A program made the position numbers and the translations under genes. A stretch of 48,479 bases of DNA from a bacterium (lineage in GTDB: Bacteria; Patescibacteriota; Patescibacteriia; JACQSD01): the NCBI GenBank assembly GCA_030648795.1, contig JAUSHC010000002.1, positions 1 through 48,479 of the forward strand, read 5' to 3'. Shown here piece after piece: positions 43,223-44,725 of the stretch. The notes under the pieces are model-generated. The model was not told the DNA's origin. It made no database searches and saw only the letters and a program-made list of their open reading frames with translations. Position 1 is the first letter of the stretch, and each line of letters opens with the position of its first letter.

Positions 43223-44326
43223 ATGCTTCGTCGATCAAAAACATCTCTTCCTCCGCCTGATGCATTCCTGCTCGTTATAGCCGGTATTGTTATTTTATTT
43301 GGTCTTGTCGCTTTGACATCCGCGAGCGGTATTGTTGCCTTCAATAAATTCGGTGATTCGTTTTTTTATGTGCGACGGCAGCTTCTGTTCGGATTGTTTC
43401 CGGGTATGATTCTTTTTTCCGTTGGTCTTTTTATTCCGTATACGTTTTGGCGGCGCATCGCTTTTCCATTCTTCGTTGCCGCGCTTGTGTTGCTTGTCCT
43501 TGTACTCATTCCCGGAATTGGCGCTTCGTATGGCCGTGCGCGCAGTTGGTTCTCGTTTGCAGGATTTTCTCTTCAGCCGGCGGAGATTGCGAAAATTGCC
43601 GTTCTTTTTTGCTTGGCGCTTTTCCTTGAGCGACGGAATCGATTCCTCGCTTTCGCGATCGTGTTGGGTCCAACGCTTTTTCTTATTATGCTGCAGCCCG
43701 ATGTGGGGACGCTCGCACTTCTTGCAGCGGTTGGGGTCGTTGTGTATTTTGTGAGTGGCGCTCCATGGTGGCATCTCCTCCTTCTTTTTCTTTCCGGTGG
43801 TGGAGCACTTGCCGGGCTTATTGCGATGGCGCCCTATCGTCTCGCGCGCGTCATGACGTTTCTTCACCCATTAAGCGATCCATCCGATACCGGATATCAG
43901 TTGATGCAATCGCTCGTTGCTATTGGCTCCGGCGGATGGTTTGGCGTCGGGCTTGGCGCATCGCGGCAGAAATTGCAGTATCTTCCCGAAGTTGCGGCGG
44001 ATTCCATTTTTTCCATTATTTCAGAAGAGCTTGGATTTATTATTGTCGCTGCGTTCATTCTCGCTCTCCTCCTTTTTTCGTATCGGGGGTTTTATATCGC
44101 ACGTCGTGCGCCGGATCAATTTTCTCGATTGTTTACCGTTGGTGTTTTTACGTGGTTTCTCGCGCAGGCGTTCTTGAATATTGGGTCGATGATCGGGATT
44201 TTGCCACTCACCGGACTTCCGTTGCCGTTTGTCAGTTATGGAGGAACGGCGCTTACGGTATCATTATTCGCTCTTGGCGTCGTTGCAAATATTTCGCGGT
44301 ATACACACAAGAACACAAGAACATAA
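43223..44326 (+). CDS. ftsW: SEDS-family peptidoglycan polymerase FtsW/RodA
   Basis: GSGGWFGVGLGASRQKLQYLPEVAADSIFSII and GLPLPFVSYGGT motifs. Confidence 0.88.
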   Translation: MLRRSKTSLPPPDAFLLVIAGIVILFGLVALTSASGIVAFNKFGDSFFYVRRQLLFGLFPGMILFSVGLFIPYTFWRRIAFPFFVAALVLLVLVLIPGIGASYGRARSWFSFAGFSLQPAEIAKIAVLFCLALFLERRNRFLAFAIVLGPTLFLIMLQPDVGTLALLAAVGVVVYFVSGAPWWHLLLLFLSGGGALAGLIAMAPYRLARVMTFLHPLSDPSDTGYQLMQSLVAIGSGGWFGVGLGASRQKLQYLPEVAADSIFSIISEELGFIIVAAFILALLLFSYRGFYIARRAPDQFSRLFTVGVFTWFLAQAFLNIGSMIGILPLTGLPLPFVSYGGTALTVSLFALGVVANISRYTHKNTRT

Positions 44327-44331
44327 AAACA
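44312..44331. repeat. Left arm of the 20-bp inverted repeat flanking the four-helix-bundle gene
   Basis: AACACAAGAACATAAAAACA. The reverse complement of 44706-44725 is AACACTAGAACATAAAAACA (19/20). Confidence 0.9.
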
Positions 44332-44702
44332 TGAAAGCAAACAATTTTAAGGAGAATTTAAAAAAGAAGATGGATGAATATGTGCATTTCGTTTACAATG
44401 TTACCAAAGAGTTTCCAAAAGAAGAATTGTACGGAGTAATTTCACAAATTCGTCGAGCAACCTTGTCGATTATTTTGAATTACATTGAGGGATACGCACG
44501 GAGAAGACCAGCGGTTCAATTAAACTTTTTTGAGATTTCTTATGGCTCATTAAAAGAATCGAAGTATCTCTTACATTTTTCTTTGATCGAAAAATATTTA
44601 AATAGTAATGATTATGAAATCGGCTTAAAGATGGCAGAGGAGATTGGTGCCATGCTCTGGACAGAAATAAGTCAGCTTGAAGGATCACTCACACATCCCT
44701 AG
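44331..44702 (+). CDS. Four-helix-bundle protein (23S rRNA intervening-sequence protein / Avd-like family)
   Basis: About 123 aa with the FPKEELYGVISQIRRATLSIILNYIEGY and SLKESKYLL pattern typical of this family. Confidence 0.8.
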   Translation: MKANNFKENLKKKMDEYVHFVYNVTKEFPKEELYGVISQIRRATLSIILNYIEGYARRRPAVQLNFFEISYGSLKESKYLLHFSLIEKYLNSNDYEIGLKMAEEIGAMLWTEISQLEGSLTHP

Positions 44703-44705
44703 TTT

Positions 44706-44725
44706 TGTTTTTATGTTCTAGTGTT
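44706..44725. repeat. Right arm of the 20-bp inverted repeat flanking the four-helix-bundle gene
   Basis: TGTTTTTATGTTCTAGTGTT, beginning 4 nt after the gene's TAG stop. Confidence 0.9.

What the first reader, a model, noticed from the sequence alone, without database searches (positions are those of the whole stretch)
44312..44725. Four-helix-bundle (23S rRNA IVS / Avd-like) gene as an inverted-repeat-bounded cassette between ftsW and murG
The 372-nt gene is flanked by a 19/20 inverted repeat: AACACAAGAACATAAAAACA at 44312-44331 and its complement at 44706-44725. The left arm overlaps the ftsW stop and the cassette ATG. The right arm ends 4 nt before the murG ATG. Members of this family are classically found inside stem-forming intervening sequences of 23S rRNA. 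The family also includes the DGR accessory protein Avd. Here a copy sits in a conserved cell-division operon with the same stem-bounded geometry. This suggests that the IVS-type unit is a mobile or processed cassette that can land in mRNA operons.
Basis: partly seen in the sequence, partly recalled or inferred. Interest (0 to 1): 0.6.

Follow-up and report, generated by a model that had tools for sequence, protein, structure and literature searches.

The report
Four-helix-bundle gene inside octamer-repeat hairpin
A small gene of the family known from ribosomal-RNA "intervening sequences" sits between the cell-division genes ftsW and murG, inside a hairpin built from mirror-image 8-base repeats; the sister species lacks it, and gene-less copies of the same hairpin occur elsewhere in this genome.

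Summary
A 372-nt PF05635/TIGR02436 gene (44331-44702) is bracketed by a 26-nt inverted repeat (44306-44331 / 44706-44731; core 19/20). No composition-preserving shuffle matched it (0 of 5000).

The arms are not plain terminal repeats. They are inverted arrays of an 8-nt unit (CAYWARAA). These units supply the ftsW stop codon and the murG start codon.

- **Insertion:** the only same-genus genome has ftsW-TGA-AAC-ATG-murG with no gene and no arrays. Most class relatives also have ftsW abutting murG.
- **Relatives:** the closest protein homologues (73-84% identity by codon alignment, dN/dS about 0.1, synonymous sites saturated) sit at unrelated operon junctions in other Patescibacteria, with arms of the same unit family.
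- **Empty hairpins:** the same arm sequence occurs mostly as gene-less hairpins, three in this genome and about 40 stretches in about 27 other genomes.
- **Other copies:** all four PF05635 genes of this genome are armed, each with a different unit.
- **RNA stem:** arm mismatches show no G·U bias (16 vs 16), so selection for an RNA stem is not demonstrated.
- **DGR role:** not supported.

This is an operon-junction counterpart of ORF-bearing 23S rRNA intervening sequences. I found no printed description of it. How it moves is unknown.

The parts
43223..44326 (+). ftsW (FtsW/RodA family). Its last seven codons (THKNTRT) and its TAA stop lie inside the left repeat array.
   Evidence: PF01098 324.7 bits. 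89% identical to the same-genus homologue, whose tail is NHKT*.
44305..44336 (+). Left array of four 8-nt units: ACACAAGA, ACACAAGA, ACATAAAA, ACATGAAA. Unit 3 holds the ftsW stop and unit 4 holds the cassette ATG.
   Evidence: Period-8 array detection; pattern VCAYDARA x3 matches at 44305-44328 and 44313-44336.
44306..44331 (+). Left arm of the inverted repeat.
   Evidence: the repeat finder I1: 26 nt, 88% complementary. It forms the closing stem in both the MFE and the centroid fold.
44331..44702 (+). Four-helix-bundle protein gene (23S_rRNA_IVP / TIGR02436), 123 aa. GC is 34%, against 48-50% in the flanking genes.
   Evidence: Best PDB match is 2gsc (Xcc0516), E 8e-10. dN/dS is about 0.05-0.16 among the closest homologues.
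44706..44731 (+). Right arm, an inverted array: TGTTTTTA, TGTTCTAG, TGTTTTTA, TG. The final ATG is the murG start codon.
   Evidence: A near-identical arm occurs in L048 and L049 beside homologous genes and in about 40 gene-less sites.
44729..45796 (+). murG.
   Evidence: PF03033 and PF04101; 73% identical to the same-genus homologue.

Best explanation
**What it is.** The segment 44305-44731 is a gene-loaded member of a family of hairpin elements made of inverted arrays of an 8-nt unit (CAYWARAA on the left, its complement on the right). The four-helix-bundle (4HB) gene occupies the position that is a 3-70-nt loop in the gene-less members.

**Shown**
- The module is present in this lineage and absent from the sister species. 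Outgroups with ftsW abutting murG make insertion the parsimonious reading.
- Gene and arm type stay together across old divergence. Synonymous sites are saturated, the protein is under strong purifying selection, and the arms are still recognisable.
- It sits co-oriented at an operon junction. Its repeat units supply the stop codon of ftsW and the start codon of murG, so both host reading frames stay intact.
- No promoter or terminator of its own was detected.

**Inferred**
- It is transcribed with the dcw operon. In that transcript the arms can form a 24-26-bp stem, a plausible substrate for the genome's RNase III. This would parallel the 23S rRNA intervening sequences that carry the same gene family.
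- The 4HB protein, by homology a pentameric nucleic-acid-associated bundle, recognises the repeat units of its own hairpin family. It would act either in spreading them or in controlling them.
- How the element inserts is unknown.
For: **The repeat is real**

**Empty site in relatives**
- G001 (FtsW 89% identical, ftsW pS 0.47) reads ...TATAATCATAAAACCTGAAACATGAAA..., with no gene.
- G001 has no protein of this subfamily and no 3-unit array of this type.
- At least 12 of the 30 class relatives inspected have ftsW within 30 nt of murG, and several more within about 60 nt.

**Gene and arms stay together**
- Eight closest homologues lie at eight different same-strand junctions: unknown|PrgI-TraC, CheB|, atpA|, PBP5|MraY, Mur ligase|, CheB|CheA, response regulator|PilB, and one between unannotated genes.
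- All eight have period-8 arms of the same unit family.
- Their arms share more 6-mers than shuffles do: 5.4 (left) and 7.1 (right), against shuffle maxima of 4.7 and 3.6.
- This holds although pS is 0.5-0.9 and dN/dS about 0.1.

**Gene-less hairpins of the same unit**
- Own genome: C22:5849-5918, C60:3013-3079 and C89:7300-7366, all at same-strand junctions.
- Other Patescibacteria: 40 stretches.
- 20 of 27 arm-bearing genomes encode a related 4HB at E<=1e-30, against 7 of 60 relatives.

**Generality and composition**
- All four own-genome PF05635 genes are armed, each with a different unit.
- 30 of 38 Patescibacteria 4HB genes examined score 11 or more on the flank inverted-repeat score.
- The gene is AT-shifted relative to its flanks.

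**RNA stem is possible**
- The stem closes both the MFE and the centroid fold, and an RNase III gene is present.
- In Coxiella, an IVS with the same gene family, a 28-bp stem and tandem heptamers is cut by RNase III (PMC4990558).
Against: - **No wobble bias:** sense-strand G·U versus A·C mismatches are 16 vs 16 in strict alignments and 51 vs 54 in loose ones. An RNA stem under selection should show a G·U excess.
- **Weak own-arm pairing:** a cassette's own arms pair only marginally better than arms taken from different cassettes of the subfamily (15.1 vs 13.0; 919 of 20000 random pairings do as well). What is conserved is therefore the unit sequence in inverted arrays, not fine-tuned pairing.
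- **Arrays without the gene:** G055 (39 arrays), G038 and G040 carry this array type but no subfamily 4HB.
- **Mismatch between gene and arm type:** in arm-bearing genomes only 6 of 20 best-matching 4HB genes have window-type units on both sides.
- **No clean insertion signature:** no target-site duplication, no clean insertion boundary (an 18-nt stretch of G001 is replaced) and no enzyme were found.
- **Only one same-genus genome** is available for the empty-site comparison.
- **Other cargo:** a GxxExxY protein, a 194-aa protein and a methyltransferase also sit inside such inverted arrays. The hairpins are therefore not exclusive to 4HB genes.
Confidence: 0.6

Rival explanations
1. Hairpin first, gene second. 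Inverted short-repeat hairpins are ordinary, fast-turning-over junction elements of these genomes. A 4HB gene without arms landed in the loop of one that already lay between ftsW and murG. On this reading the arms are host hairpin, not part of a gene-carrying mobile unit.
For: - Gene-less hairpins far outnumber loaded ones.
- The genome holds about 134 heptamer arrays, against 3 in a shuffled genome.
- Other cargo genes sit in such hairpins.
- Arrays at the same junction carry unrelated units in G000 and G001 and in G002.
- In L050 the gene lies beside a complete hairpin.
Against: - All nine members of the closest protein subfamily, from different genomes and operons, carry the same period-8 unit family. 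More distant 4HB subfamilies sampled from other Patescibacteria genomes, and the three other copies in the window's own genome, carry other units.
- G001 has neither a hairpin nor a gene at this site.
Confidence: 0.2
2. Regulatory module, not a mobile element. The arrays are cis-acting signals at cistron boundaries, acting on translation restart, processing or stability. The 4HB is their trans-acting binding protein and is encoded inside one of its own sites for autoregulation.
For: - The arrays supply stop and start codons at SD-less junctions.
- One 4HB subfamily goes with one unit family, which has several gene-less sites in the genome.
- The protein is under strong purifying selection.
- Published heptamer arrays are concentrated just upstream of start codons (PMC4679880; PMC4692102).
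Against: - Genomes with many such arrays lack the protein.
- Presence and absence between sister species, and the AT-shifted composition, look like acquisition.
- This reading does not exclude mobility.
Confidence: 0.15
3. An ancient resident gene of the dcw cluster, inherited vertically and lost in the relatives.
For: Synonymous sites between the window gene and its closest homologues are saturated, so the family is old.
Against: - The gene is absent at this junction in G001, in G002 and in most of the 30 class relatives.
- The closest homologues lie in unrelated operons.
- GC is 34% against 48-50% in the flanks.
Confidence: 0.04
4. A DGR accessory protein (Avd) working with a reverse transcriptase.
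For: - Weak similarity to Avd models (PF22296 35.5 bits; NF033474 34.4 bits).
- The genome has two RT genes.
Against: - Both Avd models score below their cut-offs (40 and 80 bits).
- Neither RT is on the 48-kb window contig.
- The RT on C1 has its own adjacent Avd-like gene.
Confidence: 0.01

Closest known systems
ORF-bearing intervening sequences (IVS) of 23S rRNA (Coxiella burnetii helix 45, Leptospira; Warrier et al. 2016, PMC4990558; Ralph and McClelland 1993)
   Same: - Same protein family (PF05635).
- The ORF is enclosed by terminal inverted repeats that form a stem of about 26-28 bp.
- Tandem short repeats run up to the start codon. In Coxiella these are GACAGAT heptamers whose number varies between strains.
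- Long suspected to be mobile, with no mechanism known.
   Different: - This cassette sits between two protein-coding cistrons, not inside rRNA.
- The unit is an octamer.
- The units provide the host genes' stop and start codons.
- The protein is under strong purifying selection, whereas Coxiella S23p is decaying.
- RNase III cleavage was not tested here.
- This genome's 23S rRNA carries a LAGLIDADG insert, not a 4HB IVS.
REP/REPIN elements with their RAYT gene (REPtrons) of Proteobacteria
   Same: - A single gene is flanked by inverted copies of a short repeat.
- The same repeat is scattered through the genome as gene-less hairpins at intergenic sites.
- Different gene subfamilies go with different repeat families in one genome.
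   Different: RAYT is an HUH Y1 transposase with known chemistry. The 4HB protein has no recognised catalytic domain. Here the arms are tandem arrays of 7-9-nt units, not a single palindrome.
Intergenic heptamer repeat arrays (Xanthomonas/Nostoc GGGNATC, PMC4692102; Beggiatoaceae TAACTGA, PMC4679880; Geobacter four-heptamer elements, PMC2700814)
   Same: - Arrays of about four units of 7 nt between co-oriented genes, often ending at a start codon.
- Convergent pairs that form inverted repeats were noted in 70-75 cases in Xanthomonas.
   Different: In my term searches of those papers, none of the passages returned links the arrays to a protein family or reports a gene between the inverted arrays; the words 'intervening sequence' do not occur in PMC4692102 or PMC4679880.
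23S_rRNA_IVP genes inside cas operons (Zhang et al. 2013, PMC3936711)
   Same: The same gene family was observed wedged between neighbouring operon genes, for example between cmr3 and cmr2.
   Different: In the passages I read, no flanking repeats or insertion character are described. The co-occurrence was read as a possible CRISPR-associated function.
DGR accessory protein Avd
   Same: Homologous four-helix-bundle fold.
   Different: The protein scores below the Avd model cut-offs and has no adjacent RT or template repeat.

Membership tests
PF05635 / TIGR02436 four-helix-bundle (23S rRNA IVS protein) family | Profile score above the curated cut-off | tested here: met
   PF05635 87.4 bits (cut-off 33.8); TIGR02436 82.9 bits (cut-off 24).
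PF05635 / TIGR02436 four-helix-bundle (23S rRNA IVS protein) family | Conserved R-x3-S-x3-N-x2-E motif of helix 2 (motif quoted in PMC3936711) | tested here: met
   The window protein reads ...SQIRRATLSIILNYIEG..., which contains R-ATL-S-IIL-N-YI-E (motif).
PF05635 / TIGR02436 four-helix-bundle (23S rRNA IVS protein) family | Homology to a solved pentameric four-helix-bundle structure | tested here: met
   2gsc (Xcc0516), E 8.3e-10. The oligomeric state of the window protein was not tested.
23S rRNA intervening sequence (IVS) | Located inside a 23S rRNA helix | tested here: not met
   It lies between ftsW and murG. The genome's 23S gene is on C23 and holds no PF05635 hit.
23S rRNA intervening sequence (IVS) | Terminal inverted repeats forming a long stem around the ORF | tested here: met
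   26-nt arms at 88%, which form the closing stem of the fold.
23S rRNA intervening sequence (IVS) | Excised from the transcript by RNase III | not testable with these tools
Only the presence of an rnc gene was shown. The wobble test gave no support for RNA-level selection.
DGR Avd | Score above the Avd model cut-offs and adjacency to a DGR reverse transcriptase | tested here: not met
   NF033474 34.4 bits against 80; PF22296 35.5 bits against 40. The RT genes are only on C1 and C56.
TIR transposon / MITE | Target-site duplication and a cognate transposase | tested here: inconclusive
   Comparison with the G001 empty site shows replacement of 18 nt, not a clean insertion with a duplication. 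No transposase lies in or next to the module.
REP/RAYT-like system (REPtron) | Gene flanked by inverted copies of a repeat that also occurs as gene-less hairpins in the same genome | tested here: met
   One loaded and three empty hairpins of the CAYWARAA unit in G000.
REP/RAYT-like system (REPtron) | The flanked gene encodes an HUH Y1 transposase | tested here: not met
   The only domains found are PF05635 and bAvd-like.

The most novel reading that the evidence does not exclude
PF05635 four-helix-bundle proteins and inverted arrays of 7-9-nt units may form one widespread genetic system, analogous to REP/RAYT but without a known enzyme. In it, each protein subfamily reads its own repeat unit. 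Gene-loaded hairpins are the source copies and gene-less hairpins are their derivatives or targets. The units carry stop and start codons so that the elements can settle harmlessly at cistron boundaries. The classical 23S rRNA intervening sequences would simply be the copies that landed in rRNA.
Probability: 0.3. Interest if true: 0.85.

Novelty: new variant of a known kind. Interest (0 to 1): 0.6.

Why it matters
Thirty years after their discovery, the origin and purpose of ORF-bearing rRNA intervening sequences remain unknown, as does the function of their conserved four-helix-bundle protein.

This locus shows the same gene-plus-stem design outside rRNA, and it offers three things that make the question testable:
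- a clean empty site in a sister species;
- gene-less copies of the same hairpin in the same genome;
- arms that are better conserved than synonymous sites.

Together these point to sequence-specific recognition of a short repeat unit. That gives a concrete binding assay for an orphan protein family found in thousands of genomes.

The locus also connects three scattered reports: intergenic heptamer arrays in Xanthomonas, Nostoc, Geobacter and Beggiatoaceae; IVP genes inside cas operons; and rRNA IVSs.

The negative wobble result is a caution against assuming that the arms exist to make an RNA stem.

Tried and rejected
- **Duplex energy as a background measure:** RNAduplex energy of 90-nt flanks did not separate the cassettes from other ORFs, because long GC-rich windows dominate. 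I replaced it with a local inverted-repeat alignment score.
- **Metagenome scan with MurG:** it returned only distant relatives at 40% identity or less, so no extra close junctions.
- **Orthologous junctions of the empty hairpins in G001:** the FolD and AspRS orthologues were not found in that incomplete assembly. G002 has them, with hairpins of different units.
- **Rfam:** no family matched over 43800-45200 at E<=1.
- **Promoter and terminator scan:** nothing was associated with the cassette.
- **Whole-cassette fold:** the z-score was unremarkable (-0.81). Only the terminal stem is robust.
- **Wobble (G·U vs A·C) test for an RNA-level stem:** negative.
- **Own-arm versus cross-arm complementarity:** only marginal (p about 0.05).
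- **Strict one-to-one link between array type and 4HB subfamily:** rejected, because G055, G038 and G040 have the arrays without the gene.
- **Chance or low-complexity explanation:** rejected.
- **Avd/DGR role:** rejected.
- **"ATGAAA" as a target-site duplication:** considered because it occurs at 44331 and 44729. I dropped it because ACATGAAA is itself a common unit variant of the array family, seen in empty hairpins.
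Full report
**1. The observation**

The window reads exactly as described. AACACAAGAACATAAAAACA lies at 44312-44331, and its complement, with one mismatch, lies at 44706-44725. The repeat finder extends the pair to 26 nt at 88% (44306-44331 / 44706-44731).

The enclosed ORF runs from ATG 44331 to TAG 44702 and encodes 123 aa. It is a clear member of PF05635 (87.4 bits) and TIGR02436 (82.9 bits). 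It falls below the cut-offs of the Avd models. Its only PDB relative by sequence is Xcc0516 (2gsc).

ftsW (43223-44326) ends at a TAA inside the left arm. murG starts at 44729, inside the extended right arm.

The repeat is not a by-product of A-rich sequence:
- 0 of 100 window shuffles give three matches to the 20-mer.
- 0 of 5000 composition-preserving shuffles of the two 40-nt segments reach the observed score of 17.
- For 1251 other ORFs of the genome, the same flank-to-flank score averages 6.5 ± 1.4.

**2. The arms are arrays, not simple terminal repeats**

The left side is four 8-nt units: ACACAAGA, ACACAAGA, ACATAAAA, ACATGAAA (44305-44336). The right side is the inverted array TGTTTTTA, TGTTCTAG, TGTTTTTA, TG.

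Unit 3 on the left contains the ftsW stop. Unit 4 contains the cassette start codon. The last right-hand unit contains the murG start codon.

No promoter, terminator or Rfam family is associated with the segment. The gene is co-oriented with the operon and lies 4 nt after the ftsW stop.

**3. The rest of the genome**

The window is contig C21 of a 1.1-Mb, 92-contig assembly (47% GC). I did not verify that name.

The assembly has four good PF05635 genes. All four are flanked by inverted arrays, with flank scores of 17-19, and each has a different unit:
- CAYWARAA in the window;
- GAATNAN at C46, between pilB-like and pilC-like genes;
- RGTAGT-type at C31;
- TACTAG-type at C32, after an rpoD-like gene.

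All four are co-oriented with their neighbours and AT-shifted: 34-40% GC against 40-49% in the 1-kb flanks of the three other copies and 48-50% in the window's flanking genes.

A fifth, weak hit on C1 sits next to a reverse transcriptase and is probably a genuine DGR Avd. A second RT lies on C56. Neither is on the window contig.

The 23S rRNA gene (C23) is about 1.3 kb longer than the model and carries a LAGLIDADG ORF, not a 4HB gene. An RNase III gene is present.

**4. The empty site**

In the only same-genus genome held (G001), FtsW is 89% and MurG 73% identical, and ftsW pS is 0.47. There the junction reads ...CGTTATAATCATAAAACCTGAAACATGAAAATA..., so the ftsW stop TGA is followed by AAC and then the murG ATG.

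Homology with the window ends at the Tyr codon before the left array and resumes at the murG ATG. An 18-nt stretch is replaced. There is no clean boundary and no evident target-site duplication.

G001 has no protein of this subfamily and no 3-unit array of this type anywhere. The same-family genome G002 and most of the other class relatives inspected also have ftsW next to murG: at least 12 of 30 within 30 nt, and several more within about 60 nt. Gain in the window's lineage is therefore the parsimonious reading.

In other lineages this junction hosts different inserts:
- another 4HB gene in AT-rich inverted arrays just upstream of murG (G005);
- a methyltransferase gene between two AACTTTT-heptamer hairpins (G013);
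- a GC-rich palindromic element (G022);
- a KH-domain gene (G052).

**5. Relatives of the gene**

The protein has 2582 homologues at E<=1e-5. By BLASTP local alignment the best are 80-86% identical, in other Patescibacteria lineages.

Eight of the closest, which are 73-84% identical by codon alignment, were located on contigs. Each sits co-oriented at a different operon junction: unknown|PrgI-TraC, CheB|, atpA|, PBP5|MraY, Mur ligase|, CheB|CheA, response regulator|PilB, and one between unannotated genes.

All eight have period-8 arrays of the same unit family. The right arms of L048 and L049 are almost identical to the window's (TGTTTTWATGTTCTAGTGTTTTWATG). In L049 and L047 the last unit again gives the downstream gene's ATG.

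Between these genes pS is 0.5-0.9, which is saturated, and dN/dS is about 0.05-0.16. So the protein is functional and the copies are old. Yet the arms still share more 6-mers than composition-matched shuffles do: 5.4 (left) and 7.1 (right), against shuffle maxima of 4.7 and 3.6. The unit sequence itself is therefore constrained.

More distant 4HB genes in 27 related genomes are also mostly armed. 30 of 38 cassettes score 11 or more. The periods are 7 in 21, 8 in 11 and 9 in 6 cassettes, and the units differ.

**6. Gene-less hairpins**

The exact 26-nt arm pattern occurs in 40 stretches of about 27 genomes. These are almost all Patescibacteria: Magasanikbacteria, Falkowbacteria, Kuenenbacteria and Buchananbacteria, plus some MAGs labelled otherwise.

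Inspection shows that most of them are hairpins: a left array (CATTAAAACA...), a loop of 3-70 nt, and a right array. Only one is next to a 4HB gene. One Falkowbacteria genome has at least nine.

The window's own genome has three such empty hairpins at same-strand junctions: C22:5849-5918 (after an AspRS-like gene), C60:3013-3079, and C89:7300-7366. At C89 the last unit supplies the ATG of a FolD-like gene.

The GAATNAN unit of the C46 cassette has 45 arrays in the genome. Overall the genome has about 134 heptamer arrays, against 3 in a shuffled genome.

A GxxExxY-type gene (C78) and a 194-aa gene (C44) also sit between inverted arrays.

**7. How tight is the link between protein and array?**

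- 20 of 27 arm-bearing genomes encode a related 4HB at E<=1e-30, against 7 of 60 class relatives.
- G000 has both the protein and the arrays, while its sister G001 has neither.
- The link is not obligatory. G055 (39 arrays), G038 and G040 have the arrays without the subfamily gene.
- In arm-bearing genomes only 6 of 20 best-matching genes have window-type units on both sides, although all of them are armed.

**8. RNA stem or something else?**

The arms close the predicted fold of the transcript in both the MFE and the centroid structure, with a stem of 24-26 bp. In Coxiella the homologous arrangement is cleaved by RNase III within the stem (PMC4990558).

Two tests did not favour RNA pairing as the selected property:
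- Among arm mismatches, sense-strand G·U and A·C are equally frequent: 16 vs 16 in strict alignments and 51 vs 54 in loose ones.
- A cassette's own arms pair only marginally better than arms from different cassettes of the subfamily (15.1 vs 13.0).

What is conserved is the unit sequence, arranged as inverted arrays. I read this as pointing to recognition of the unit by a factor. The encoded pentamer-type 4HB protein is the obvious candidate. This is inference.

**9. Turnover of junction arrays**

At murD|ftsW the window has AATCCCT x4 (43190-43217), whereas G001 has CTTACTN-type heptamers at the same place. At murG|GT2 the units also differ. At the AspRS and FolD junctions, G002 has hairpins of yet other units. 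Given ftsW pS of 0.47, these arrays must be replaced rather than mutated.

**10. What is known**

In print I found:
- the rRNA IVS with this gene family, a stem and heptamers, proposed to be possibly mobile (PMC4990558);
- IVP genes wedged inside cas operons, without mention of repeats (PMC3936711);
- intergenic heptamer arrays, sometimes as convergent pairs, without any linked protein (PMC4692102, PMC2700814, PMC4679880).

My searches for the combination returned nothing relevant. Earlier notes of this scan describe the same gene-plus-heptamer-arm design in many other genomes. I used them as leads and for literature pointers only.

**11. Verdict**

The cassette is best read as a gene-loaded member of an inverted-octamer-array hairpin family, inserted at ftsW|murG after the split from the sister species. 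It works like an ORF-bearing IVS but is not one by location.

Processing, protein-repeat recognition and the insertion mechanism remain untested.

Noticed in passing
window 43190-43217 and 45770-45797: Solo heptamer arrays bridge murD|ftsW (AATCCCT x4, containing the murD stop) and murG|GT2 (TCYYAAT-type, ending in the GT2 ATG). In the sister genome G001 the same two junctions carry arrays of unrelated units (CTTACTN-type and TTCATNA-type). The arrays are therefore replaced, not mutated, between congeneric species.
   Followed up: partly
G000 C22:5849-5918, C60:3013-3079, C89:7300-7366: Three gene-less hairpins built from the same 8-nt unit family as the window cassette. Each lies between co-oriented genes. 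The C89 hairpin supplies the ATG of a FolD-like gene.
   Followed up: yes
G000 C78, minus strand (oriented coordinates 32874-33263): A GxxExxY/PD-(D/E)XK-like small gene is flanked by the strongest inverted repeat in the genome (score 29), made of TACGAATGA-type units. This is a second kind of cargo inside inverted arrays. A 194-aa membrane-anchored protein gene on C44 sits in AATTAG-type arrays.
   Followed up: partly
L035 (G013), between ftsW and murG: A 293-aa methyltransferase-like gene is flanked on each side by a complete AACTTTT-heptamer hairpin. The two hairpins are in inverted orientation, and their loops are reverse complements of each other.
   Followed up: no
L045 1880-1960: The right arm of a homologous cassette lies inside the downstream ORF. 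There it is translated as the hydrophobic core of a signal peptide (FVLCSGAFVFLCFNALV).
   Followed up: no
L050 1860-1975: In this homologous cassette the gene is followed by a direct copy of the left array, then a short loop, then the inverted array. A complete hairpin therefore lies downstream of the gene.
   Followed up: partly
G000 C23:18050-22253 (L084): The 23S rRNA gene is about 1.3 kb longer than the Rfam model. It contains a 160-aa LAGLIDADG-type ORF (a probable group I intron) and no four-helix-bundle IVS.
   Followed up: partly
G000 C1:733-1864: A reverse transcriptase gene (minus strand) lies next to a weak Avd-like four-helix-bundle gene. This is probably a DGR. A second RT is at C56:17951-18556.
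   Followed up: no
G000 C38:16478-16545: A window-type octamer array is followed directly by an AACTTAC heptamer array. Both lie inside a 508-aa GTPase-like ORF (probably Der/EngA).
   Followed up: no
G000 C32, downstream of its 4HB cassette: A GC-rich hairpin (GGGGTAGCTTCTACCTGTCGGTAGACAGGCAGCGGTACCTGCCTGCC...) separates the cassette from a small GIY-YIG nuclease gene.
   Followed up: no
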